Assembly (NCBI GenBank): GCA_020849895.1
Contig: JADZFN010000020.1
Span: 18,314 to 82,313 of the forward strand
Source: Verrucomicrobiia bacterium
Lineage (GTDB): Bacteria > Verrucomicrobiota > Verrucomicrobiia > JABWAM01
DNA length: 64,000 bases
Reading direction: 5' to 3'
A program made the position numbers and the translations under genes. The first letter of the stretch is position 1, and each line of letters opens with the position of its first letter. Positions 2,270 through 31,835 of the stretch are shown one piece after another. Below the pieces are notes generated by a model. That model worked only from the letters and a program-made list of their open reading frames with translations, had not been told where the DNA came from and searched no databases.

Positions 2270-4171
2270 TTATCGCGGCGGAGGGAGGGGCGACTCGATT
2301 TTTCTCAGGGCCACATAGAGCGCCCAGAACCATGACCAGTGAATTCGCCCCGCGGAGTAGCCGTTCCGGACATCGCGGAGCCCGTCGGCTGACAGCCATT
2401 CCGTCCACGCCCCGCGCTCCGCGAGCCGGCGATCGAAGTCGGCAAGCGCGCGTCCGCGGAGCCACTCTTCCCAGGGAAAAACGAACCCCTGTTTCGGGCG
2501 TCGCGCCACCTCTTCCGGTAACGGAGTGCGCAACGCGTCCCGCAAGCGCCGCTTCGGCGCGCCATCGCCGGCGGGTTCCGAGGCGAGCAAGGGCAGCGCG
2601 CGCCGCACGACTTCGACATCCACCAGCGGGGTGCGCACCTCGAGGCCGTGCGCCATCGCCAGCGCGTCCGTGTCGCGGAGCAATTGGCTTGAGAGATAGC
2701 GCGTGAACTCCAACCCTCCGACGATCACACGAGGCGGTTGCGGCCGCTCCACGGCCCAGGCCGTTTCGGAAAAAAAGCGCTCGTGCGCCGCCGCCACGAG
2801 GGCGCGTCGCTCCGGGCGTAGGACGTGCGCCATCGCCCGCGCCGAGAAAAGCCCCCGGCACGCGAGATACGCGCCCCGTTCGTCCGCAGGCGCGGAGCGC
2901 AGCAGCCCGGCCAGTCGTTCTCCACTCGTTCCGCCGCGCAGGGCCGCCGTCGCGAGCGCGGCGGCCGCGCGACCCGCGCCGCCGAGAGCCGCCGCCGCGC
3001 GCATCCATCCCGCGAGGCGCGGCACGCGAGCGAAGTTCCCGTAGCCCGCGAAAAGCTCATCTCCGCCGACGCCCGAGAGGGCGACCGTCAACTCAGCATC
3101 CCGCGCCGCGCGGGAAACCACATATGTGTTGAACCCGTCAATGCTCGGTTGATCGAGATGCTCCAGAAAACGTTCCAGCATCCCTTCGAAGTCGGCCTGC
3201 GCGAGCGGCACGTCGCGGTGCCGCGTCCCGTAGCGCTCCGCCGTCCGGTGCGCGAGCCCGCTTTCATCCAGCGCATGGCCCGCGAGGGAAACGGAAATCG
3301 TATGCACCGGCGCCGGGGAAACCTCCGACGCCAGCCCCGCAAGGGTCCCGCTGTCAATGCCGCCGCTGAGGAACAGCCCGATCGGCGCGTCGCTCACCAG
3401 ATGCCGGCGCACCGAATCGCGGAGCGCTTCCGCCATGCTCGCCTCGTCGGGCGGTTCGTCCGCGTCGGCCGCGGCGCACCACCCCGGCACGGGGCTCGCG
3501 CCGCGAAACGCAGCCCGCCCCTCCCGCACCTCGACACGTTCACCCGGCGCCAACGCCCGAACGCCCCGCGCGAACGCGCGCGGCGCGGGCACGGAACCGA
3601 GCAACAGGAAGTCCGCGAGCGCGTCGCCGCTCGTCGCGCCGTCGAATCCCGGCAGGCTGCGAAACGCGCGCGCCTCCGAAGCGAAAGCCAGCAGTCCGTC
3701 CGTTTCGAAAAGATAAAGCGGTTTGATCCCGAGCGGGTCTCTCGCGAGATGCAGGATTCCCCGGGTCGCGTCGTACGCCGCCGCCGCATACATCCCTCGC
3801 AGCGCGTCGAACGCCGCCGCGCCGCGCTCCTCGAACAGGTGAACGAGCACTTCTGCGTCGCTCGATGAGGCGAAGCGGTGCCCTCGTGCGAGCAGGCCTT
3901 CCCGAAGCTCGCGCCAGTTGTAGAATTCTCCGTTCACGAGAACGCATGTGGAACGCTCCTCGTTCCACATAGGCTGGCGGCCCGCAGGCGAAAGGTCGAG
4001 GATCGCCAGCCGGCGATGGCCGAGAAAGACCCCCGCCGGGCCGTCGGAAAAATATCCTTCATCGTCCGGCCCGCGATGCCGCATCGCATCGGCCATCGCG
4101 CGGACTACGGCCTCCGCCGCGATCGTTTCGAGCACGGGTTGCTTCAGAACGATGCCGCAGATGCCGCACAT
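2270..4171 (-). CDS. asnB: Asparagine synthetase, glutamine-hydrolysing (AsnB family amidotransferase)
   Basis: N-terminal MCGICGIV (Ntn Cys2 glutaminase). The synthetase domain carries the SGGIDSG PP-loop. Full length is 633 aa. Confidence 0.9.
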   Translation of the reverse strand: MCGICGIVLKQPVLETIAAEAVVRAMADAMRHRGPDDEGYFSDGPAGVFLGHRRLAILDLSPAGRQPMWNEERSTCVLVNGEFYNWRELREGLLARGHRFASSSDAEVLVHLFEERGAAAFDALRGMYAAAAYDATRGILHLARDPLGIKPLYLFETDGLLAFASEARAFRSLPGFDGATSGDALADFLLLGSVPAPRAFARGVRALAPGERVEVREGRAAFRGASPVPGWCAAADADEPPDEASMAEALRDSVRRHLVSDAPIGLFLSGGIDSGTLAGLASEVSPAPVHTISVSLAGHALDESGLAHRTAERYGTRHRDVPLAQADFEGMLERFLEHLDQPSIDGFNTYVVSRAARDAELTVALSGVGGDELFAGYGNFARVPRLAGWMRAAAALGGAGRAAAALATAALRGGTSGERLAGLLRSAPADERGAYLACRGLFSARAMAHVLRPERRALVAAAHERFFSETAWAVERPQPPRVIVGGLEFTRYLSSQLLRDTDALAMAHGLEVRTPLVDVEVVRRALPLLASEPAGDGAPKRRLRDALRTPLPEEVARRPKQGFVFPWEEWLRGRALADFDRRLAERGAWTEWLSADGLRDVRNGYSAGRIHWSWFWALYVALRKIESPLPPPR

Positions 4172-4236: not shown

Positions 4237-4276
4237 CGCCAGCAACAGAGGGCAGGCCAATTTTCAAACACCCTCT
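4237..4276. repeat. 40-bp repeat copy (cgccaGcaacagagggcaggccaattttcaaacaccctct). It matches the loop plus right arm of the hairpin at 11134-11191 with one mismatch.
   Basis: Direct comparison with 11152-11191. It lies in the divergent asnB/MFS intergenic region. The left hairpin arm is absent at this site. Confidence 0.8.
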
Positions 4277-4342
4277 CAGGCGCGCCTGTTGTTCCGGCAC
4301 CGCGAATTGCATTCGGAGGGAGAACTGCTGAAACTGGCTCGC

Positions 4343-5677
4343 ATGAGGCGCCTCGCCTTTCCTTTCGCGACCGTCAGACGCGGGGTGCCGCCGCCGCGGA
4401 CACCCCTCGACGAGAAAGAGGCCCGGGCGGCGATGAACGCCGCGGTCCTCCTGCAGTGCGTCGGCATGCTGATGATGCTGATGTTCACGAATGGGGTGCT
4501 CCTGCTCTACTTTTCGGCACTGGATCTTAGCGTGGAGAAGGTGGTCTTTTACCTCTCGTTGCCGCGGCTGCTCCAGGCCGTCGCCACCGTGCCCGGCGCC
4601 TGGTATTGCACCAGCCACGGAAAGAAGCGGATCGGCCACCTGGGCCGTATGCTCATGGGGATCGGCGGCGGATGCTTGGTCGCCGGTGGATTCGTCGGCG
4701 ACTGGAGGCGCGAGGCGTGCATCGCGCTCGGCGTCACCCTGTGCGGGGTGGGGGAAGCGATGTTCGCGAGCGGCTGGTTCGCGCTTCTCGATGGGATTGT
4801 TCCTCCGGCGATGAGGGGGCGGTTCTTCGGGCGGTTGCGGTTTTCCTGGCAACTCGTGGGCTTTGCGGTGACGGCCGTCTGCTCTCTTTGGCTGACGGAT
4901 CGCTCCCCGCTCGTCGTGTTCTACGGGATTCTCGCGGTCGGGATCTTTGGCGTCTTCGCGAGCGGCACCCTCTACAGCCTGAGGATCCCGGAGATCGAGG
5001 AGGAGGAACCGGGAAGGGAGGGGCCGATGGCGACGCTTCTGCGCGTACTGCGCGCGCCGGGGTATTTGCCGTTCTGCGCCTACGTATTCCTGGTCACGAC
5101 GTTCACGGCGACGCTGCCCGCCATCTTCGGCTTGTTGGAGCGTAATGCGCTGGGGATGGGAGACCGGACGGTCGTCTGGTTGGGAAACTTCGGGATGCTG
5201 GGGTGCGTGCTGGGCTTCTACCTCGGAGGCCTCGCGGTGGACCGATGGGGCACCAAGGTGGTCTTCCTCGCGGCGCACTTCGGCTACGCCCTTACGCTCG
5301 TGCTGTTCCTTCTCCGCGGCCTCGTGCCGGTAGCGACACCGGTATGGCTGGGAGCGCTTCACGCCCTTTTCGGTCTGGTCTTCGCGTCCTCCAGTGTCGC
5401 CATCTCGGCCGAGATGCTGGCGCTGGCGCCTCCGGGCAACAAGCCGCTGGCGACCTCCGTTTGCTGGTCACTCTTCCAGGGAGGCACGGCAATCTGCGGG
5501 ATGCTCGGTGCCGGGCTGCTCAAGAGCGGCATGCTTCGGGACTCATGGCGCTTCGGAGGCCTCGACCTTTCCGCGTACGACGGGATCCTTCTCATCGCCG
5601 CCGCACTGGTGGCGCTCCTCACCGTCACTCTCGGTCTCGTGCCCTCCGTGATCGGCAGGGCCGAGAGCGCGCCATGA
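4343..5677 (+). CDS. MFS-family transporter (about 12 predicted TM helices). Start reassigned to the ATG at 4343 (MRRLAFPF...) downstream of the asnB divergent promoter.
   Basis: The translation of ORF 3878..5677 is dominated by hydrophobic helices with MFS-like GxxxDRxGxR-type loops (GGLAVDRWGTK). The first 155 codons of the tracked ORF overlap asnB on the opposite strand and are unlikely to be coding. Confidence 0.6.
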   Translation: MRRLAFPFATVRRGVPPPRTPLDEKEARAAMNAAVLLQCVGMLMMLMFTNGVLLLYFSALDLSVEKVVFYLSLPRLLQAVATVPGAWYCTSHGKKRIGHLGRMLMGIGGGCLVAGGFVGDWRREACIALGVTLCGVGEAMFASGWFALLDGIVPPAMRGRFFGRLRFSWQLVGFAVTAVCSLWLTDRSPLVVFYGILAVGIFGVFASGTLYSLRIPEIEEEEPGREGPMATLLRVLRAPGYLPFCAYVFLVTTFTATLPAIFGLLERNALGMGDRTVVWLGNFGMLGCVLGFYLGGLAVDRWGTKVVFLAAHFGYALTLVLFLLRGLVPVATPVWLGALHALFGLVFASSSVAISAEMLALAPPGNKPLATSVCWSLFQGGTAICGMLGAGLLKSGMLRDSWRFGGLDLSAYDGILLIAAALVALLTVTLGLVPSVIGRAESAP

Positions 5678-6035
5678 GCATTGCCCATTGCGGAATCGGG
5701 GAGAGGAATGAGGGCAAGGGATCCGTCCTTTGGATTTTGGATATTAGGATGTCGGACGTAACGTGAGCGGTGGCAACACGGCTCGAGTTTGCCGGGGCGA
5801 TCTGCCCTCTGATGAACAGGAGGACTTCCGCGTGTCGCTGGCACGAAGCTTGGTGCAAGCAGGGAGCCAAGGCTTTGCGTGGAGCCGGACGTGCTGGGCG
5901 CAAGCCCCGTTTGAGCGAGGCGCAGGTCCGGTAGCTTGAGGAGGGGCTCAAGCGCGGCCTCGAGGCTCGTCACCTTCCTCAAACATCTGCGCCGCCATCT
6001 TCGCAGCCGGCGGCTGGTTTCTTCCCGAATAGGCC

Positions 6036-6818
6036 TCAAGTGGCGGCTGGTGGGAGCGACTGAAAAGGAAGGCGGACGGTGAGGGAAAGTCCCGGCGAGC
6101 GGGAGGCTTCAATGGTGATCCCGAACAGCCTTCCAAGATGCTCCTGAACAAGGACCTCGGCGGGTGGTCCGTCGGCCGCCAATCGCCCGCTCTCGAGGAG
6201 GATCGCGCGGTCGAGGAAGAGCGGCGCAAGCAGCAGGTCGTGGCACGTCATCAACACCGTACGTCCTTCCTCTGCGAGGGAACGCGTCAGCCGGTAGACT
6301 TCCAATTGATGCGCCATGTCGAGATGAGTTGCCGGCTCGTCCAACAGCAAGACAGGGGCATCCTGAGCCAAGGCCCGTGCAATGATCACGCGTTGGCGCT
6401 CTCCTCCACTCAGCTCGTCGAAGCGACGGTCGGCCATGTCATCCGCCCCTACGCGGGAAAGGGCGGCAGCGATGCGGGCTGGATTCTCATCCCCTGACGC
6501 AAAACGCCCGAGCGCGACCATCTCCCTTGCCGTCAATGCGATGCCACGGGGAGTATCTTGAGGCACAACCGCGATAGAGCGGGCCACCTCACGCGGAGAA
6601 AGCGCGTTTACCCGGAAGTTGCCATACCACACCGTCCCGTGCTGCGGTGACAGGGCGCCGGTCAAGCAGCGCAAGAGGGTGCTCTTGCCGCTGCCGTTGG
6701 GCCCAAAGATGCCGGTGACGGTTCCTGGGAAAAACCCCGCGTCGATTCCCTCGAGAACCAGTGTGCCGGGGCGGTAGGCGAAGCTGAGTTTCTCTGCGCG
6801 AAGATTCATGATGGGCAT
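6036..6818 (-). CDS. ABC transporter ATP-binding protein, FecE/BtuD/HmuV family (iron-chelate/corrinoid type-II importer)
   Basis: Walker A GPNGSGKST, signature LSGGERQRV, Walker B LLLDEP. Length 260 aa. Confidence 0.85.
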   Translation of the reverse strand: MPIMNLRAEKLSFAYRPGTLVLEGIDAGFFPGTVTGIFGPNGSGKSTLLRCLTGALSPQHGTVWYGNFRVNALSPREVARSIAVVPQDTPRGIALTAREMVALGRFASGDENPARIAAALSRVGADDMADRRFDELSGGERQRVIIARALAQDAPVLLLDEPATHLDMAHQLEVYRLTRSLAEEGRTVLMTCHDLLLAPLFLDRAILLESGRLAADGPPAEVLVQEHLGRLFGITIEASRSPGLSLTVRLPFQSLPPAAT

Positions 6819-7816
6819 CCCGACACGTCACGTCGCCGAAGAAGCCAAAGAAAAACTGGCGCACCGAGCATGGCCGTGAGGATCCCGACCGGGATTTCCG
6901 CGGGCGCGGCGAGCGTCCGGACCAGCGTGTCGGCCATGAGGAGGAGCAGCGCCCCGCCAAGCGCTGTTGTGGGAATCAGTCGCCGATGATCCCCACCGAT
7001 CACCAGCCGCAACAGGTGGGGCACGATGAGGCCGATGAAGCCGATGACGCCGGTCAGGCTTACCGCGACGGCTGAGGCCAAGGCGATGAGCAAGAGCAGC
7101 TTGCGCTGAAGGTGGGGAACATCCACCCCGAGATCGCGGGCTGCGGTTTCTCCCGCGAGGAGGACATTGAGTGGTCGCGCGAGGGCGAGGAGGGAGAACA
7201 ACAGTCCAAGCGCAACCCCCAGCAGCACGAGGGCCATGTGGCCGCCGGCCTGCCAGAGCCCGCCCATGAGCCAGAAAACGATGGCTTGGAGACGTTCCCC
7301 AGCGAGATAGAGCATTCCTGTCGTCATGGCAGAACAAAGAGCGGCGATGGCGATCCCCGCCAAAAGGAGGCTGTGGCCGAAGAAGGCGCCGCGTTTCCCC
7401 AACGCAAAAACAACCGTCACCGCGCCGAAGCCCCCCAGGAATCCTCCGATCGGCACCACGATTCCATCCCAACCCCGCGCGCCGGCCACAAGCATGGTCG
7501 CCACTGCACCAAGAGCCGCCCCATTGGAAACACCCATCACGGAGGGCGTGGCAAGGGGGTTTCGAAACAGTGTCTGCGAGGCCAGGCCGGCGAGGGCGAG
7601 GATGGTTCCGACCGAGGCAGCAGCCACCATGCGCGGGAGTCGAATCTCAAAGAGGACCCGGTCGCGCGCGTCCCACCCGCTATGCCCCGTCATCGTCCTC
7701 CACGCGCGCATCAGGACTTCGCTCGGGGGCATGCGCACGCTTCCCAACAGCAGGGTTCCGCCCGCCGCGCCGAACAGTGCGATGGCGAGAAGCAGCGTCA
7801 GTGCACGAGGTTTCAC
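6806..7816 (-). CDS. ABC transporter permease, FecCD/BtuC family
   Basis: 336 aa, about 9-10 TM helices, C-terminal GxxxxxxWLL motif typical of FecCD. Overlaps the ATPase start by 13 bp. Confidence 0.85.
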   Translation of the reverse strand: MKPRALTLLLAIALFGAAGGTLLLGSVRMPPSEVLMRAWRTMTGHSGWDARDRVLFEIRLPRMVAAASVGTILALAGLASQTLFRNPLATPSVMGVSNGAALGAVATMLVAGARGWDGIVVPIGGFLGGFGAVTVVFALGKRGAFFGHSLLLAGIAIAALCSAMTTGMLYLAGERLQAIVFWLMGGLWQAGGHMALVLLGVALGLLFSLLALARPLNVLLAGETAARDLGVDVPHLQRKLLLLIALASAVAVSLTGVIGFIGLIVPHLLRLVIGGDHRRLIPTTALGGALLLLMADTLVRTLAAPAEIPVGILTAMLGAPVFLWLLRRRDVSGCPS

Positions 7817-8559
7817 AGGCCTCCGGCGACCTGGCGGGAGGCAAAGCGATCATCCCGCTCGGTCAGATCGAGGGCCTGCGCCGAGGTGAGGTGAGAGAAG
7901 CCAACCTTCCGAAGATGCCGCTGGCAGGCCTCAACGGTGCGCGCCATCTGCTCCTCGGTGGGACGCGGGTAAGGCTGTCCTGGCACCGGGATGTAGCCCA
8001 TGATGTGGAAGGGGATGTCCACGCTGAGCGAGGCGATCCATGACGCAATAGCCTCCACCTGATCAAGGTCCACCCAACCGGGAACGAAGACCACGTTGGC
8101 TCGCATCTTCAATCCCGCCCGAACGGAATTCGCGAAATTGTCGAAGATCCGGCTCTTGTCGCGGCCCGTATAGGCGAGGTGCACGACGGGATCCCACGCC
8201 TTGAGCCCAACGTTGGCGCCGTCGAGGTTGGGCAGGGGGAGCTGCCAGCCGTTGGTGTGGCCGAGGAAGGTTCCCAGCCCAAGCGTGTTCTTCGCGAAAT
8301 CGAGCAGACGGGGAAGCTCGCGCGCGGTGGTCGGCTCGCCTCCCATGAAGAACACCCTCTCGATGGGAAGCGATCGAAGTGTGGTTTCGACATCTTCGGC
8401 CGAGAGGAAGCTCGCAGGTTTTGGCGTAGAGAAGCCGGGGGGTCCATTGGCGCCACTTCGCAGACGATAGCTGCAGACGGGGCACTTGAAGGTGCAACCC
8501 CAGTTGTGCACCGTCGCGAAACGGTGTTTCTCGTTCCAGGTGATTCGGTGGATGGGCAT
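7813..8559 (-). CDS. Small radical SAM protein (CX3CX2C: GCTFKCPVC; GGEP SAM-binding motif), embedded in the ABC-importer operon
   Basis: CTFKCPVC cluster 19 residues from the N-terminus and FFMGGEPT downstream. 248 aa, a size typical of the QueE/PFL-activase/NrdG-like minimal radical-SAM fold. Start and stop overlap the neighbours by 4 bp and 1 bp. Confidence 0.65.
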   Translation of the reverse strand: MPIHRITWNEKHRFATVHNWGCTFKCPVCSYRLRSGANGPPGFSTPKPASFLSAEDVETTLRSLPIERVFFMGGEPTTARELPRLLDFAKNTLGLGTFLGHTNGWQLPLPNLDGANVGLKAWDPVVHLAYTGRDKSRIFDNFANSVRAGLKMRANVVFVPGWVDLDQVEAIASWIASLSVDIPFHIMGYIPVPGQPYPRPTEEQMARTVEACQRHLRKVGFSHLTSAQALDLTERDDRFASRQVAGGL

Positions 8560-8560
8560 G

Positions 8561-9367
8561 TCAGTTGTCTTTGTGAATGGCGGCTCGAAGATGGGCCACC
8601 GCTTCCGGGAGACGGCTGCCGGCGATCAGCCATTGACGGTCGAGAGCGACCACCGCTCCGCGTCTCACGGCAGGAAGGGCGAAAAGCCTGGGGCGCCTCG
8701 CGATGGCCTCCGGAGTCGCGAAGCCCCGGACGAACAGGATGACGGATGGGTTGGCAACGAGCAGTTCCTCTTGAGAGAGCAGAACGCTGCTCCGGGTCGC
8801 TCCCCCCGCGATGTTGATGCCCCCAGCGAACATGATCAGATCGTTGAGGTAGCTCTCGGTCCCCATGGTTCGAGAAAGACTGTAGAGTTCGAGGTAGACA
8901 CGCGGCGCATCGGGCGCCGGAGTGGTGGGACAATCGCGAAGAAAGACCGTCAGTTGGTCTGCAAGGCGGTTTGCCTCAACTTCGCGTCCAACGCGCCGAC
9001 CAATGGTGCGTACGGTGGCTGGCAACTCACCCGCTCGTCCGCAGCGAATGCGCTCCACCGGCACGCGGAGTTCTCGCAGCAACTTCGCGGCATCGTCCTG
9101 ATACCACCAGACAAAGGCGAGATCCACCTTCCGAGCGAGCACCTCTTCCTTGGAGATCGCGCTGCCTTTCACGATCACGGGCACCTTGGACGCCTCGGGG
9201 ACTGCCGTCCCGTATTCGTCTATGGCGGAAAGCCGCTCCCCCGCGCCAATGGCGCAGAGAACGTCGGTTGCCGTCGTGCAGAGGCTCAAGATGCGTTGAG
9301 GCGGCGCCGCATGGACCGAGCCCATGAGAAGGCCTGCAGCCGCGAGCAGGGTCCACCGACTAGGCAT
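8561..9367 (-). CDS. ABC transporter periplasmic binding protein, BtuF/FecB/HmuT family (cluster 8). Start reassigned to MPSRWTLLAAAGLLMGSVHA (signal peptide).
   Basis: ILSLCTTATDVLCAIGAGERLSAIDEYG and later DLAFVWWYQ motifs are typical of BtuF-like binding proteins. The ATG at 9367 is 5 bp downstream of the PEP-CTERM gene stop. Confidence 0.75.
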   Translation of the reverse strand: MPSRWTLLAAAGLLMGSVHAAPPQRILSLCTTATDVLCAIGAGERLSAIDEYGTAVPEASKVPVIVKGSAISKEEVLARKVDLAFVWWYQDDAAKLLRELRVPVERIRCGRAGELPATVRTIGRRVGREVEANRLADQLTVFLRDCPTTPAPDAPRVYLELYSLSRTMGTESYLNDLIMFAGGINIAGGATRSSVLLSQEELLVANPSVILFVRGFATPEAIARRPRLFALPAVRRGAVVALDRQWLIAGSRLPEAVAHLRAAIHKDN

Positions 9368-10427
9368 GGAAGGCCCTCCGACGAACCACGCCGATAAGGC
9401 CGATGCCGAGCACGACGAAGACGCTGGCGTTCGGTTCTGGAATCGCGGTGATTTCAAGAACGGCGATTTGCGCGCGAAGCGAAGTCTCCCTGGTGCCCGG
9501 CACATCTGGGCCGACGCTGAACGTTGCGGAGTTGGTGATCTCCACGAGAGAGAGGACATCGTAGTTCACCGCATCGGGACCGTAGCTGAGACCAGTCGGG
9601 TTGGGTGCCCAATGCGCGACATTATTGCTGCTGCTCCCACCAAGGGCGCTCCCGTTGAAGTAGAGGCGGTCGTTCTGGCCGGCGTCTCCGTAGGTGTAGA
9701 CGGCGTGCAGAGTGGCGCTCGTGAGATCTGTGAGGGCCAAGGCGCCCAAGGAGACGGACCATGCATTGGTTTGGCTTCCCGTGGGAGCCCGGTAGATGTC
9801 CGCGCTGCCCTCGGCGATGGCGTACTGGAAGCGGTTGTTCAGACTGGCGGCCTGATACACGGATAGGAGCGAGATCTGGCTGATTCGCCCGTCGAAACTG
9901 TCGGGCGTGGTCACCGTGATGCTTACCGAGTTAGCGCTGCCGTTGGTGTTGAGCCAGGCGGGATTGATGGGCAATCCGATGAGCCAGACGCCCGAGCCGC
10001 TGCCATAGACCGAGGGCGCCATGACGCTGAAGGTTGCGTTGGTATCGCTGGCCTTCCCAAAGGCGAGACCGCCACTGACCAGAGGGTTGCCGTTCACGGT
10101 GACGTCGAGGTTGGCGGTGTAGTTCGAGGTCCCGCCCCACGCCGTGAGGACCAGACGACCGTTCACGATGTCGTCCGCCGAGGGCATGGTGAAACTCGTG
10201 TTGATGGTATAGGGCTGCCCGACGGCCGGATTCGCGCTGTTGGTCCAGGTCGCCTGTGAGCTCATGTAGAGCGCGCCATCGCTCACGGTGCCGCTGATCA
10301 CCGTCTGCAAACCAACGCCGGCGTGGTTATAGGCCGCGAACGCCGCAGGGCCCGCAACGCCAAGGGCGAAGGCGAGGGTGAGTGCAGTCAGTTTTCGGCG
10401 AGGGGCGGACGGAGTGGCGGTTTTCAT
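9360..10427 (-). CDS. PEP-CTERM sorting-domain surface protein (secreted, Ser/Thr/Asn/Gly-rich, C-terminal PEP-TM-RRR). Start reassigned to MKTATPSAPRRKLTALTLAFALGVAGPAAFA.
   Basis: C-terminus ...ITAIPEPNASVFVVLGIGLIGVVRRRAFHA is a canonical PEP-CTERM/exosortase sorting signal. N-terminal signal peptide present. No exosortase gene lies in this window. Confidence 0.75.
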   Translation of the reverse strand: MKTATPSAPRRKLTALTLAFALGVAGPAAFAAYNHAGVGLQTVISGTVSDGALYMSSQATWTNSANPAVGQPYTINTSFTMPSADDIVNGRLVLTAWGGTSNYTANLDVTVNGNPLVSGGLAFGKASDTNATFSVMAPSVYGSGSGVWLIGLPINPAWLNTNGSANSVSITVTTPDSFDGRISQISLLSVYQAASLNNRFQYAIAEGSADIYRAPTGSQTNAWSVSLGALALTDLTSATLHAVYTYGDAGQNDRLYFNGSALGGSSSNNVAHWAPNPTGLSYGPDAVNYDVLSLVEITNSATFSVGPDVPGTRETSLRAQIAVLEITAIPEPNASVFVVLGIGLIGVVRRRAFHA

Positions 10428-10437
10428 AAAGGAAAGA

Positions 10438-11058
10438 TCAGCGGGAGGCGTCCCAGTCGTCCCGTGTGGTCCGAGAGCGAGTCTCCGCGTGGCCGTCGCA
10501 AAACAGGGCACAGAACATTTTGCCGGTGTGGCGGTAGGCGACGTCCACCACGGGTTCGGCGAAGACGCCTCCCCCGCCACAGTAGTACTTCCCGGGGGTG
10601 CAGTCGGCTGCGAAAATTGTGGCTGAAGGCCGCCGCACGTTCTCCGGGCGGACCCCGTACCAGAAGCAGGTGGCGTTCCCCCCAAAGTTGAAGCAATTGA
10701 GCCCGTAGCTCAGGTGGATTTCCGGATCCCAAGCGACGGCCAGACGCTGGGTGTCGGAAGGGCAAAGGAACACCTCGGACTTCTTCGAAATGACGCCTTT
10801 GAGCAGATCCATCCAGCGGGCCTCCGATGAAACCCATGCCGGCGGATAAACCCCGTAATCATTGATGTAGAGCTTCGCGGCGATTCCGATCTGGCAAAGG
10901 TTGGAGGCGCAGGCGGCCTGCTTTCCCCGGGCCCGTGCTCGGGAGAGGGCCGGGAGGAGCATGCCTCCAAGCGCAGCGACGATGGCCAAAGTGACGAGCA
11001 TCTCAACCAGCGAGAAGCCGTGTTGCCTGGAAGGCCGAGTGTAACGACGTGAACGCAT
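10438..11058 (-). CDS. Prepilin-type N-terminal cleavage/methylation domain protein of the DUF1559 family (H-X9-DG C-terminal motif)
   Basis: N-terminus MRSRRYTRPSRQHGFSLVEMLVTLAIVA (type IV pilin-like class III signal). C-terminal ...FCDGHAE (H-X9-DG). This family is hugely expanded in Planctomycetota/Verrucomicrobiota. Confidence 0.8.
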   Translation of the reverse strand: MRSRRYTRPSRQHGFSLVEMLVTLAIVAALGGMLLPALSRARARGKQAACASNLCQIGIAAKLYINDYGVYPPAWVSSEARWMDLLKGVISKKSEVFLCPSDTQRLAVAWDPEIHLSYGLNCFNFGGNATCFWYGVRPENVRRPSATIFAADCTPGKYYCGGGGVFAEPVVDVAYRHTGKMFCALFCDGHAETRSRTTRDDWDASR

Positions 11059-11100
11059 GTATTACGATTTTATATTTAGTCATACTCTTCTCATAGATGT
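11059..11100 (-). promoter_or_regulatory. AT-rich island immediately upstream of the DUF1559 start (minus-strand sense ...gacatctatgagaagagtatgactaaatataaaatcgtaatac-ATG). Candidate promoter for the six-gene operon.
   Basis: Local AT content is far above the genome background. It contains a TATAAAAT -10-like element. No other intergenic gap exists inside the operon. Confidence 0.35.
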
Positions 11101-11133
11101 CAAGCCCCAGACGAGGAATGGGTCGGATCTGTA

Positions 11134-11191
11134 AGAGGGTGTTTGAAAATTCGCCAACAACAGAGGGCAGGCCAATTTTCAAACACCCTCT
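11134..11191. repeat. Perfect hairpin element. The 18-bp arm agagggtgtttgaaaatt and its exact reverse complement aattttcaaacaccctct are separated by a 22-nt loop (cgccaacaacagagggcaggcc).
   Basis: Read directly from the sequence. The loop plus right arm (11152-11191) recurs at 4237-4276. The hairpin abuts the stop of the IS3 remnant. Confidence 0.85.
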
Positions 11192-11600
11192 AACGTCTCC
11201 CGGGTCAATGGCTGATGGCAGAGCCGATGGACCTGCCGCTTGCCCGCCAACCAGCCCTCCCATCGCAACAGCGCTGCGATCCGCCGATGGCCATAGCGCG
11301 GATGTTTCTCCGAGAGTTCCTTCAGCCGCTGGGTCAGCGCTCCTGCCGCGGGGACATCGGCCTTCTCCGATGCCAGAAGGTGGCCCGGGAAAGGTCCAGG
11401 ATCCGACATGCCGCACGCCCGGAGCACAGCCCCGCCTGGACCGCCTCCACCGCCATCTGCCGACGATTGGAACGTCATCTCCGAGATGTTCCTCTCCTGG
11501 CACACCTCCACGATCGACTTCCTGCTGTCGGCTTCCCGCAAGAGGCGGATCTTCTCCTCCGGCTCAAAAGGCGGGGTCGCGTCACCCTCGGGGCAGTATT
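11179..11600 (-). pseudogene. Degenerate IS3-family transposase remnant. It carries an OrfA HTH region and an OrfB N-terminus fused in one short frame. There are no terminal inverted repeats, no integrase/DDE core, and no intact partner ORF.
   Basis: The minus-strand translation contains ...EEKIRLLREADSRKSIVEVCQERNISEMTFQ (IS3 OrfA HTH, cf. SVxEVCRELGVSExTFYRW). It also contains LKELSEKHPRYGHRRIAALLRWEGWLAGKRQVHRL (IS3 OrfB N-term, cf. HPRYGYRRITALLRREGWxVNHKRVxRL). Only about 50 aa separate the two, against about 100 in intact elements. Confidence 0.6.
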
Positions 11601-11656
11601 AATTTTCCTTTTTAAGATTTTTGCGTATAGTTTGCGTTCCAAACCGATCTGTTTTG

Positions 11657-12943
11657 TTGAATCTTTTTTTTCAAAAATCCTGTCGAAGGATCAGGGACGT
11701 TGTGTGTCTCTGCGCGTTTTTCGCGATCGGCACGCGTGTGTTTGGGCAGTTCGACCCGTCAATTTCCATGACCGGCGTGGAGGCCGCCAACCTCGAGCGG
11801 GACGCACGCCAGCAGGTGGATGACACGCAGGCCACGGTGCGCGTGGGGAAGGTCAACTTCCGCATGGCTGCGGGGCTTCGCCAGGAATATAACGACAACA
11901 TCGGGCTGACGCCGAAGGCGCGGGAGCATGACTTCATCACCACGCCGCACCTCACGCTCGGCGCCCACTGGCCGATCTCCCAACTCAACAGCCTCGATCT
12001 CGTCCTCGGGCTGGCCTACTCCAAGTATTGGGAGCATCCGGCGCTCGACACGACCGGTCTCCTGATCGAGCCGACCTCCATGCTCGATTTCAACGTCTAC
12101 GTGGGCGACGTCCGGATCAACGTGCACGACCGGATCGGGATTCAGCAGGACCCTATTTCCGCGGGTCAGTTGAGCAACATCACGACCTTCCGCCGGCTCA
12201 ACAACACGGCCGGCATCGCCGCCGATTGGGACCTCAACAAGGTGATCCTCACCGGCGGTTACGACTACTCGATCTTTCGCACGCTCGAGGACGGCTACAG
12301 TTATCTGGATCAGGACTCGCACGAGTTTTACGGGCGCATCGGCTACCGCTACGCGCCGCAGCTCACCCTGGGCCTTCAAGGCTCCTACATCATCACGGAT
12401 TACCTGGAGAACGTGCAGAACGACGGCACGACGTGGAGCGCGGGCGTCTACGCGGACACCATTTTCAGCGAATACCTGCGCGGGGGCGCCTCAGTGAGCT
12501 TCCAGGGATCGAGATTCGACAGCAACGGCACGATCGGGGATACGAGTTCGTTCAATTCGGTGGTCTTCACGGCAACGCTCAACAATCAGCTCAACCGGTG
12601 GCTTAACCACTCGCTGACGCTGCGCCGCTTCACCACCTTAGGCATCGGGACGAATTTCACCGAGACCTATCGCGTGGATTATTCGCTGAATGCCGAGGTG
12701 GTCGAACAGGTGACCACCTCGCTGAATTTCTTCCACGAATGGTTCAGGGATTCCTCTTCTGCGGGCACCGGTTATTTGGCGCAAAAGGGAATGCGCTGGG
12801 GCGTGGGGCCGATGATCGGCTACCAAATCACGCCAGCCTCGCGTCTGTCCATCGGCTACCAGCGGACCGAACGCGACGCGAATTACAATCTGTATGACTA
12901 CACGCAAAACGTGGCGTTCATTGATTTCAATCATCAATTCTAG
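11657..12943 (+). CDS. Outer-membrane beta-barrel protein ending in a C-terminal Phe (EpsL-like, polysaccharide-locus associated). The exact start is uncertain: TTG 11621, TTG 11657 and GTG about 11700 are all possible.
   Basis: Alternating amphipathic beta-strand pattern, Tyr/Gly-rich, terminal ...FIDFNHQF*. Signal-peptide-like RRIRDVVCLCAFFAIGTRVFG. The first about 25 codons of the tracked ORF lie in an AT-rich noncoding-looking stretch. Confidence 0.6.
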   Translation: MNLFFQKSCRRIRDVVCLCAFFAIGTRVFGQFDPSISMTGVEAANLERDARQQVDDTQATVRVGKVNFRMAAGLRQEYNDNIGLTPKAREHDFITTPHLTLGAHWPISQLNSLDLVLGLAYSKYWEHPALDTTGLLIEPTSMLDFNVYVGDVRINVHDRIGIQQDPISAGQLSNITTFRRLNNTAGIAADWDLNKVILTGGYDYSIFRTLEDGYSYLDQDSHEFYGRIGYRYAPQLTLGLQGSYIITDYLENVQNDGTTWSAGVYADTIFSEYLRGGASVSFQGSRFDSNGTIGDTSSFNSVVFTATLNNQLNRWLNHSLTLRRFTTLGIGTNFTETYRVDYSLNAEVVEQVTTSLNFFHEWFRDSSSAGTGYLAQKGMRWGVGPMIGYQITPASRLSIGYQRTERDANYNLYDYTQNVAFIDFNHQF

Positions 12944-31759: not shown

Positions 31760-31835
31760 GGGGCAGTAGCTCAGTTGGTAGAGCACCACAATGGCATTGT
31801 GGGGGTCGTGGGTTCAACTCCCATCTGCTCCACCA
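31760..31835 (+). tRNA. tRNA-Ala (anticodon GGC), with the CCA end encoded
   Basis: Manual fold: acceptor ggggcag/ctgctcc with the G3:U70 Ala identity pair, D-arm gctcagttggtagagc, anticodon stem ccaca/tgtgg with loop atGGCat, T-arm ggttcaactcc. A TTTTT run follows the CCA. Confidence 0.85.

What the first reader, a model, noticed from the sequence alone, without database searches (positions are those of the whole stretch)
11134..11191. Perfect 18-bp-stem hairpin element, with a 40-bp partial copy 7 kb away in the asnB/MFS divergent promoter (4237-4276)
agagggtgtttgaaaatt-N22-aattttcaaacaccctct is an exact inverted repeat, with an AT-rich stem top unusual for this GC-rich DNA. Its loop plus right arm (40 bp, one mismatch) recurs at 4237-4276 between divergently transcribed asnB and the MFS gene. 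The loop itself restarts with AGAGGGCAGG, echoing the arm. Two copies within 7 kb, both in regulatory intergenic space, suggest one of three things: a dispersed regulatory palindrome (operator for a shared regulator), a small REP/MITE-like mobile repeat, or an RNA structural element. The full copy abuts the truncated end of the IS3 remnant, hinting it may have inserted into or truncated that element.
Basis: seen in the sequence. Interest (0 to 1): 0.55.

Follow-up and report, generated by a model that had tools for sequence, protein, structure and literature searches.

The report
Tiny IS5-type transposon remnant hairpin
The perfect hairpin is a 56-base, gene-less miniature copy of an IS5-family insertion sequence, with both transposon ends kept and the interior deleted, and the 40-base partial copy 7 kb away is a one-ended fragment of the same element, so this is ordinary transposon debris and not a regulatory site or an RNA gene.

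Summary
There is a perfect 18-bp inverted repeat at 11134-11151 and 11174-11191 with a 22-nt loop. The loop plus right arm recurs at 4237-4276 with one mismatch.

The arm is the conserved terminal inverted repeat of a widespread group of ~0.9-kb IS5-family insertion sequences. The exact 18-mer occurs in at least 75 loci of other genomes, and similarity always stops at ...CACCCTC. In a Trueperaceae MAG, a Dehalococcoidia MAG and Nostoc PCC 7120 these ends flank an IS5-family DDE transposase gene. In at least 10 phyla they flank non-coding elements of 56-280 bp (MITEs). A Verrucomicrobiota MAG carries a 275-bp MITE whose 31-bp ends contain the window's "loop" motif CAGAGGGCAGG.

Read as GAG...CTC (11135-11190), the window element is flanked by a TAA/TAA duplication. 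This is the T-N-A signature seen in 11 of 37 paired elements (permutation P about 1e-4).

The window encodes no cognate transposase. Relatives that share the adjacent operon or the adjacent polysaccharide locus lack the element.

Verdict: an unnamed, very small MITE plus a solo end, lying with an IS3 remnant at a lineage-specific synteny junction. It is a new member of a known kind and of low interest.

The parts
11135..11190 (.). 56-bp miniature IS5-family element (mini-MITE): left end GAGGGTGTTTGAAAATT, a 22-nt interior derived from the right sub-terminal region, and right end AATTTTCAAACACCCTC
   Evidence: Searches give the sequence, repeat and fold. The same ends flank IS5 transposase genes in L032, L055 and L082 and MITEs in many genomes.
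11132..11134 (.). Left copy of the 3-bp target-site duplication TAA
   Evidence: One search gives the sequence. T-N-A identical flanks occur in 11 of 37 paired elements, permutation P about 1e-4.
11191..11193 (.). Right copy of the 3-bp target-site duplication TAA
11161..11190 (+).
   Evidence: Alignment to the 31-bp ends of the 275-bp MITE in L009.
4237..4275 (+). Solo right end of the same element family (sub-terminal CGCCAGCAAC plus the 30-nt right terminal repeat). The left end is missing. It is followed by TCA (4276-4278), a T-N-A type flank
   Evidence: (D12). No left-end match nearby. No significant fold, z = -0.17. Also present in the same species in an ENA assembly (L078).
11195..11620 (-). 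IS3-family remnant (C-terminal part of orfA plus the HTH_21 start of orfB, no rve domain) lying directly next to the mini-MITE
   Evidence: Pfam HTH_21, NF033516 positions 131-177 of 369, translation.
11098..11103 (-). TTGACA hexamer of the likely promoter of the prepilin-DUF3344-ABC operon, conserved in relative L079. The mini-MITE lies 31 bp upstream of it
   Evidence: Alignment of the window and L079 upstream regions and the L079 sequence. This is inference only; the consensus scan reported a different weak site.

Best explanation
The hairpin is a non-autonomous miniature derivative (mini-MITE, 56 bp) of an IS5-family insertion sequence of the ~0.9-kb type that targets T-N-A or TA. Its two arms are the element's terminal inverted repeats, which are the binding and cleavage sites of a DDE transposase of the DUF4096 + DDE_Tnp_1 type. 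The 22-nt loop is what remains of the right sub-terminal region after an internal deletion removed everything else. The element, or a longer ancestor that was later deleted in place, was inserted by a transposase supplied in trans at a TAA site, which was duplicated. The 40-nt copy at 4237-4276 is a one-ended fragment of a second copy of the same subfamily, with an intact right terminus next to a TCA flank. Both are decaying mobile-element debris. Together with an IS3 fragment, the full copy marks a lineage-specific rearrangement junction between a conserved prepilin/DUF3344/ABC-importer operon and a conserved polysaccharide-export locus. Shown: identity of the ends with IS5-family ends, the T-N-A flanks, the lack of a transposase in the window, and absence of the element from relatives. 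Inferred: mobilisation in trans, the order of insertion and deletion, and the absence of a host function.
For: In every lineage similarity ends exactly at ...CACCCTC, while the inner sequence is family-specific. (2) In a Trueperaceae MAG the 17-mer is the right end of a 6-copy, 882-886-bp element (97-100% identical; a seventh locus, L008, is cut by its locus edge) that encodes a 273-aa protein matching NF033580 'IS5 family transposase' at 208.6 bits (cutoff 110) and DUF4096 + DDE_Tnp_1. A Dehalococcoidia 894-bp element with the same ends and TAA/TAA flanks encodes a transposase 45% identical to it. Nostoc PCC 7120 plasmid alpha has an annotated IS5-family transposase between GAGGGTGTTTGAAAAGT and ACTTTTCAAACATCCTC, flanked by TTA/TTA. 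(3) 37 right ends have an inverted partner (up to 3 mismatches) within 2 kb. Sizes cluster at 56-280 bp (non-coding) and about 880-894 bp (coding). 11 have identical 3-bp flanks, all T-N-A (permutation mean 3.1, P about 1e-4), and 13 more have TA|...|TA. The window element has 0 mismatches and TAA/TAA flanks. (4) L009 (Verrucomicrobiota MAG) has a 275-bp MITE with 31-bp ends, and its right end ...GCCAGCAACAGAGGGCAGGGTAATTTTCAAACACCCTC matches the window loop plus arm, which explains the loop. (5) The window has no IS5 transposase homologue (tblastn). (6) Relatives with the same operon (L079, 73% nucleotide identity in coding sequence) or the same polysaccharide locus (L083-L085, 75-79%) have neither the hairpin nor the IS3 remnant, and homology stops at the genes' edges. 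(7) The literature reports that IS5 and PIF/Harbinger elements make 3-bp duplications (PMC4122938) and that IS5/IS427-group ISs are 832-865 bp with 13-21-bp inverted repeats and 2-bp duplications (PMC3281130, Table 2).
Against: No cognate full-length IS of this exact subfamily (with the CAGAGGGCAGG sub-terminal motif) was found. Two metagenome scans for subfamily-specific patterns returned nothing. No precise empty site was obtained; the nearest relatives are too diverged in non-coding DNA. A TAA/TAA match has a prior of about 1 in 4 once T-N-A preference is assumed, so taken alone it is weak evidence. At 56 bp the element is at or below the usual size range for MITEs, so it may never have moved in this form.
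Confidence: 0.88

Rival explanations
1. The hairpin is a dispersed regulatory palindrome: an operator bound by a dimeric transcription factor that co-regulates asnB/MFS and the prepilin operon.
For: Both copies are intergenic and upstream of genes. The full copy is a perfect palindrome 31 bp upstream of a conserved TTGACA.
Against: Copy 2 has only one half-site and no palindrome. The same 17-18-mer is the end of transposase-bearing elements in unrelated phyla, which a lineage-specific operator would not be. It is absent upstream of the orthologous operon in L079, although the promoter is conserved there. A 22-nt spacer between 18-bp half-sites is not typical of operators (general knowledge).
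Confidence: 0.03
2. The hairpin is a structured RNA element (terminator, attenuator, sRNA or mRNA-stabilising stem-loop) transcribed from one strand.
For: It forms a very stable stem-loop (-35.5 kcal/mol, z = -7.0). MITEs are known to act in this way at times (PMC10969869).
Against: There is no T-run after the stem on either strand and no terminator-like site. It lies upstream of the prepilin promoter and after a dead IS3 fragment, so no evident transcript needs it. Rfam gives only a sub-threshold generic hairpin hit (MIR8001, 30 bits against a cutoff of 90). Copy 2 cannot form the structure. It is not conserved in relatives.
Confidence: 0.03
3. The two directly oriented copies are the decayed inner and outer ends of a composite-transposon-like unit, or of another IS-mediated event, that moved the intervening 6.9-kb block (MFS gene plus the prepilin/DUF3344/ABC operon) into this position. 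This adds to the MITE reading and does not replace it.
For: The 40-nt direct repeats bracket 4277-11151. In a relative the same operon sits in a different neighbourhood, with msrAB upstream and nikR-cbiMNQO, ferritin and fur downstream. The upstream neighbour of the adjacent outer-membrane protein gene differs in three relatives, so both borders are synteny breakpoints.
Against: The full copy has its own matching TAA/TAA flanks, which argues for an independent simple insertion. The outer end of the left copy is missing, so no outer duplication can be checked. The idea that asnB and the polysaccharide genes were once adjacent found no support in relatives.
Confidence: 0.1
4. The hairpin is a REP-type palindrome mobilised by a RAYT (Y1) transposase, or an integron attC-like recombination site.
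For: It is a small intergenic palindrome.
Against: It has no GTAG/CGTC head and does not fit the size and structure of REPs (20-40 bp, G+C-rich stems; PMC3733652). The ends are identical to those of DDE IS5 elements that make T-N-A duplications. No RAYT or integrase gene was seen among the neighbouring genes examined.
Confidence: 0.01

Closest known systems
IS5-family insertion sequences of the short (~0.8-0.9 kb) subgroups (IS427 / IS1031 / ISL2-like), for example the annotated IS5-family element on Nostoc sp. PCC 7120 plasmid alpha (NC_003276, 20.1-21.0 kb)
   Same: The terminal inverted repeat is the same (GAGGGTGTTTGAAAA.T ... A.TTTTCAAACA.CCTC). The 3-bp T-N-A (or 2-bp TA) target duplication is the same. 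The partner transposase type, DUF4096 + DDE_Tnp_1 (NF033580), is the same (PMC3281130; PMC4122938).
   Different: The window element has no transposase gene and only 22 nt between its ends. Its inner terminal-repeat motif (CAGAGGGCAGG) was seen only in a Verrucomicrobiota MITE (L009). The ISfinder subgroup could not be assigned here.
Bacterial MITEs derived from insertion sequences (for example Correia/NEMIS, MITEAba12, BrickBuilt, cyanobacterial MITEs; reviews PMC10969869 and PMC3184786)
   Same: It is non-coding, has terminal inverted repeats identical to those of an IS, is flanked by a target-site duplication, lies in intergenic DNA, folds into a stable hairpin, and lies close to a promoter.
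   Different: At 56 bp it is far smaller than the listed families (about 100-435 bp). The family is unnamed. Multi-copy status in the host genome has not been shown.
PIF/Harbinger-derived Tourist-type MITEs of eukaryotes (for example mPing, TAA duplication; PMC6042816, PMC4122938)
   Same: The transposase superfamily is related (IS5/PIF-Harbinger, 'PHIS'), and the 3-bp TAA/TNA target duplication is the same.
   Different: Those are eukaryotic, much longer (mPing is 430 bp, from general knowledge), and their terminal sequences are unrelated.
Nezha MITE / ISNpu3 of Nostocales
   Same: It is a cyanobacterial MITE, and the window's arm sequence hits Nostocales plasmids.
   Different: Nezha has a 10-bp direct repeat (CATTATCTAC; PMC6042816), not a 3-bp T-N-A, so it is a different lineage and this lead was rejected.

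Membership tests
MITE (miniature inverted-repeat transposable element) | Terminal inverted repeats matching those of an autonomous IS | tested here: met
   The arms have 17/17 identity to the right ends, and at most 2-3 mismatches to the left ends, of transposase-bearing IS5-family elements in L032, L055 and L082.
MITE (miniature inverted-repeat transposable element) | Flanking target-site duplication of the length and type made by the parent IS | tested here: met
   TAA at 11132-11134 and 11191-11193. Identical T-N-A flanks occur in 11 of 37 paired elements, including the full-length IS in L055 and TTA/TTA in L082.
MITE (miniature inverted-repeat transposable element) | Small and non-coding | tested here: met
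   The element is 56 bp. tblastn finds no transposase homologue anywhere in the window.
MITE (miniature inverted-repeat transposable element) | Multiple dispersed copies in the host genome | tested here: inconclusive
   There is one complete and one truncated copy in 64 kb. Metagenome scans gave 0 hits.
MITE (miniature inverted-repeat transposable element) | Evidence of mobility (filled versus empty orthologous sites) | tested here: inconclusive
   The element is absent from relatives L079 and L083-L085, but their non-coding DNA is too diverged to define a precise empty site. Assemblies of the same species all carry it.
IS5 family (DDE; short T-N-A/TA-targeting subgroups) | DDE_Tnp_1-type transposase encoded between the ends | tested here: not met
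   The window element encodes nothing. It is a derivative of an IS and not an IS itself. Related full-length elements do encode the transposase.
IS5 family (DDE; short T-N-A/TA-targeting subgroups) | Assignment to an ISfinder subgroup (IS427, IS1031 or ISL2) by transposase phylogeny and end sequence | not testable with these tools
   ISfinder is not available. Only NF033580 and Pfam matches and a comparison with PMC3281130 Table 2 could be made.
REP / RAYT repeats | 20-40-bp G+C-rich palindrome with a GTAG or CGTC head, associated with a Y1 transposase | tested here: not met
   The arms are 33% G+C with no GTAG/CGTC head, and the ends belong to DDE IS5 elements. The definition is from PMC3733652.
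Known RNA families (Rfam 15) | Covariance-model score at or above the gathering threshold | tested here: not met
   Only tRNA passes in the window. The permissive scan gives MIR8001 at 30.1 bits against a threshold of 90.

The most novel reading that the evidence does not exclude
The 56-bp hairpin may belong to a recurrent class of ends-only 'nano-MITEs' (56-78 bp; six of the 37 paired elements, the window's among them, from Verrucomicrobiota, Chlamydiota, Desulfobacterota, Calditrichota and Bacillota). These would still be mobilised as such, because the 17-nt IS5-type end is almost invariant across phyla and any resident transposase of this group could move them. The window copy, 31 bp upstream of the -35 hexamer of a conserved prepilin/DUF3344/metal-importer operon, might also have been co-opted to modulate that promoter.
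Probability: 0.12. Interest if true: 0.4.

Novelty: new member of a known kind. Interest (0 to 1): 0.15.

Why it matters
The main value is for annotation. A striking perfect palindrome and its partial copy, which could be mistaken for an operator or an RNA element, are explained as IS5-family debris. Together with an IS3 fragment they flag a lineage-specific rearrangement junction in an uncultured Verrucomicrobiae genome. A secondary point is that one 17-nt transposon end is conserved essentially unchanged across at least 10 bacterial phyla, and that ends-only derivatives as short as 56 bp recur. This may be useful for defining the minimal substrate of this transposase group and for MITE-finding software, which often uses a 100-bp lower size limit (the MUSTv2 default, PMC6042816).

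Tried and rejected
(1) Nezha/ISNpu3 identity was rejected. This lead came from memory and was prompted by the Nostocales plasmid hits. Nezha has a 10-bp direct repeat.
(2) A split polysaccharide locus, with asnB once adjacent to the outer-membrane protein gene and a 7.4-kb insertion between them, is not supported. asnB matches the XrtA-associated amidotransferase model only below its cutoff (360 against 817 bits). Three relatives have other genes upstream of the outer-membrane protein gene.
(3) A third degenerate copy at 5799-5814 was rejected. It has 3 mismatches, is at chance level, lies inside an ORF and is not followed by an arm.
(4) Extension of copy 2's homology to the interior of the L009 MITE was not convincing beyond CGCCAGCAAC.
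(5) Two metagenome scans, one for the subfamily end and one for the exact mini-hairpin, returned 0 hits.
(6) A literature search by sequence string found nothing relevant.
(7) The empty-site search found same-species assemblies that all carry the copies, with one contig breaking inside the hairpin loop. One good relative (P0003) had no DNA on file.
(8) attC and REP readings were considered from the sequence and rejected, because the defining motifs are missing.

Full report
OBSERVATION. AGAGGGTGTTTGAAAATT lies at 11134-11151, followed by 22 nt, and its exact reverse complement lies at 11174-11191. The 18-mer occurs three times in the window: the two arms and 4259-4276. None of 100 dinucleotide-preserving shuffles gave a match, even with 3 mismatches allowed. 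The repeat finder extends the arms to 25 nt at 92% complementarity and lists the 40-nt direct repeat 4237-4276 / 11152-11191 with one mismatch (I16 and D12). As RNA the region folds at -35.5 kcal/mol with z = -7.0. The arms are A+T-rich in DNA of 60-68% G+C.

SURROUNDINGS. To the left, on the minus strand, is an operon. It comprises a prepilin-type protein (10438-11058; N_methyl, DUF1559), a DUF3344/PEP-CTERM protein, a periplasmic binding protein, a radical SAM protein, a FecCD permease and an ABC ATPase (6036-11058). To the right is a 120-codon minus-strand ORF (11179-11541) with an IS3-type HTH_21 domain, matching NF033516 positions 131-177 of 369. Its upstream reading frame still shows an orfA-like helix-turn-helix, there is no rve domain, and recognisable IS3 sequence ends near 11208. 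After that comes a polysaccharide-export locus: a BBP2_2 outer-membrane protein, Poly_export and a Wzz/tyrosine kinase. Copy 2 lies in the 261-bp spacer between asnB (2270-4171, minus) and an MFS gene (4433-5677, plus).

WHAT THE ARM IS. Some genomes gave several hits, with eleven loci in one Anaerolineae MAG and seven in one Trueperaceae MAG. My own estimate of the chance expectation for an 18-mer in 596 Gb on both strands is about 17, assuming uniform base composition. Lining up all hits shows the decisive pattern. Within a genome, tens to hundreds of bases on the inner side are conserved. Between genomes only the 17-18-mer is shared. In all cases similarity stops exactly at ...CACCCTC. This is how a transposon terminus behaves.

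In the Trueperaceae MAG the repeated unit is 882-886 bp, with six complete copies at 97-100% identity and a seventh locus cut by its locus edge. It starts with GAGGTTGTTTGAAAAAT and ends with AATTTTCAAACACCCTC. It encodes a 273-aa protein that matches NCBIfam NF033580 'IS5 family transposase' at 208.6 bits (cutoff 110) and Pfam DUF4096 + DDE_Tnp_1. A Dehalococcoidia MAG has an 894-bp element with the same ends and a transposase only 45% identical to the first. Nostoc sp. PCC 7120 plasmid alpha has an annotated IS5-family transposase between GAGGGTGTTTGAAAAGT and ACTTTTCAAACATCCTC.

Many other hits are short non-coding elements with the same inverted ends. They are 127-133 bp (with a longer ~300-bp form) in Anaerolineae and 193 bp in Caldilineaceae, and elsewhere range from 56 to 275 bp. 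These are MITEs. Among 37 elements with a partner end (up to 3 mismatches) within 2 kb, sizes fall into a non-coding class (56-280 bp) and a coding class (about 880-894 bp).

TARGET-SITE DUPLICATION. Taking the element as GAG...CTC, 11 of the 37 have identical 3-bp flanks, all of the form T-N-A (TCA x4, TAA x4, TTA x2, TGA x1). Permuting the flanks gives a mean of 3.1 matches and reaches 11 in about 1 of 10,000 trials. A further 13 have TA|element|TA. The base before GAG is A in 36 of 37 cases, and this was not imposed by the search pattern. The Nostoc IS has TTA/TTA and the Dehalococcoidia IS has TAA/TAA. The window element has TAA (11132-11134) and TAA (11191-11193). This agrees with published statements that IS5 and PIF/Harbinger elements make 3-bp duplications (PMC4122938). 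It also agrees with the report that IS5/IS427-group ISs are 832-865 bp with 13-21-bp inverted repeats and mostly 2-bp duplications (PMC3281130, Table 2).

THE LOOP AND THE 'ECHO'. One hit, L009, comes from a Verrucomicrobiota MAG. It is a 275-bp non-coding element with 31-bp terminal repeats: AGAGGGTATTTGAAAATTAAACTGCCCTCTG at the left and CAGAGGGCAGGGTAATTTTCAAACACCCTCT at the right. It folds into a long hairpin (z = -10.7). Its right end, GCCAGCAACAGAGGGCAGGGTAATTTTCAAACACCCTC, matches the window's loop plus right arm, and copy 2, almost base for base. The window hairpin is therefore the first 17-18 nt of the left end joined directly to the last 39-40 nt of the right end. It is an internal-deletion derivative of a longer MITE or IS of this subfamily. 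The AGAGGGCAGG 'echo' is simply the inner half of the long terminal repeat.

Copy 2 carries G at the one variable position, as L009 does, and the hairpin carries A. Copy 2 has an intact right terminus followed by TCA, but no left end within reach and no significant structure (z = -0.17). It is a solo end. Both window copies begin their mutual similarity at the same base (CGCC...). The simplest reading is that copy 2 descends from a mini-element of the same form that lost its left arm. I could not test this.

AUTONOMY AND RELATIVES. tblastn with the transposase finds nothing in the window, so the element is non-autonomous here. The window comes from an NCBI Verrucomicrobiae MAG. The same species is present in two SRA assemblies and one ENA assembly at 99.7-99.9% identity. 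These carry the copies, and one contig breaks inside the hairpin loop.

A relative with the same operon (L079; 76% protein identity for DUF3344, 73% nucleotide identity over 2.8 kb) conserves a TTGACA hexamer and an A+T-rich stretch just upstream of the prepilin gene. It has no hairpin, no terminal-repeat-like sequence (up to 4 mismatches) and no IS3 remnant in its 318 bp of upstream DNA. Another relative has the operon between msrAB and nikR-cbiMNQO, but no DNA is on file for it. Three relatives of the polysaccharide locus (75-79% nucleotide identity) each have a different upstream gene. Their homology to the window begins only at about 11686-11742, and none carries the element. The hairpin and the IS3 fragment therefore occupy a lineage-specific synteny junction.

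RIVAL READINGS. An operator is unlikely. Copy 2 has a single half-site, the sequence is a transposon end in unrelated phyla, and it is missing from the orthologous promoter region. An RNA element is also unlikely. There is no T-tract and no terminator-like site, and no Rfam family passes threshold. The only permissive hit is a generic hairpin match to a plant microRNA precursor at a third of its threshold.

The idea that the two direct repeats delimit a translocated 6.9-kb block remains possible as an addition to the main reading, since both borders are synteny breakpoints. However, the full copy's own matching flanks argue that it inserted independently. The specific version in which asnB once adjoined the polysaccharide genes found no support. 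REP/RAYT and attC readings fail on their defining motifs. The Nezha MITE, which I recalled because of the Nostocales hits, has a 10-bp duplication and is unrelated.

MECHANISM, WITH STATUS OF EACH STEP. Shown: the arms are IS5-family terminal repeats; the flanks carry the family's T-N-A signature; there is no transposase in the element or in the window; and the element is lineage-specific. Inferred: an IS5-type DDE transposase supplied in trans bound the ends and integrated the element, or a longer precursor, at a TAA site with a 3-bp staggered cut. An internal deletion then reduced it to 56 bp, either before or after insertion, since the duplication is preserved either way. A second copy lost its left end. 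The IS3 element was truncated at or near the same spot, but the order of these events cannot be resolved. No host function is implied. A promoter-proximal effect, with the element 31 bp upstream of the putative -35 hexamer, cannot be excluded.

VERDICT. This is an unnamed, unusually small MITE-type derivative of a known IS family plus a solo end. It is a new member of a known kind and of low interest (0.15). Two mildly notable points are the near-invariance of the 17-nt end across at least 10 phyla and the recurrence of ends-only forms of 56-78 bp.

Noticed in passing
window 6036-11058 (minus strand); relatives and L079: There is a conserved operon of a prepilin-type (DUF1559-like) protein, a DUF3344/PEP-CTERM protein, a periplasmic binding protein, a radical SAM enzyme, a FecCD permease and an ABC ATPase. 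In a relative it sits beside msrA/msrB, nikR-cbiMNQO, ferritin and fur, which suggests a role in metal uptake or homeostasis. Pairing a pseudopilin and a PEP-CTERM protein with a FecCD-type importer is unusual, and its function is unknown.
   Followed up: partly
window 11195-11620 (minus strand): An IS3-family remnant keeps only the end of orfA and the HTH_21 start of orfB. It has no rve domain and no recognisable ends. It lies between the mini-MITE and the outer-membrane protein gene.
   Followed up: partly
window about 11130-11740: This is a lineage-specific synteny junction. The operon to the left and the polysaccharide-export locus to the right are each conserved in relatives but are never adjacent there, and three relatives have three different genes upstream of the outer-membrane protein gene (L083-L085).
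   Followed up: partly
L037 5800-6491 (Caldilineaceae MAG): Two 193-bp MITEs of the same superfamily lie 306 bp apart with swapped flanks (TCA|MITE|TAA ... TAA|MITE|TCA), as expected after recombination or inversion between two copies.
   Followed up: no
L068 1422-1439 (Saccharibacteria MAG): Here the 18-mer lies inside an rve-type integrase gene, where it encodes NFQTPS. This is a coding coincidence and not an element end, which shows that some singleton hits in the genome scan are chance matches.
   Followed up: no
L076 position 1 (= window 11161): A short-read assembly of the same species breaks exactly in the loop of the hairpin. This is typical of assembly failure at repeats or strong palindromes and hints that further copies exist in that genome.
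   Followed up: no
window 2270-4171 (minus strand): The asparagine synthase matches the XrtA/PEP-CTERM-system amidotransferase model (TIGR03108) end to end but far below its cutoff (360 against 817 bits). It passes the general asparagine synthase model TIGR01536. It may be a polysaccharide-modifying paralogue and not the housekeeping asnB.
   Followed up: partly
window 31760-31832 (plus strand): A tRNA gene is the only Rfam family above threshold in the window.
   Followed up: no
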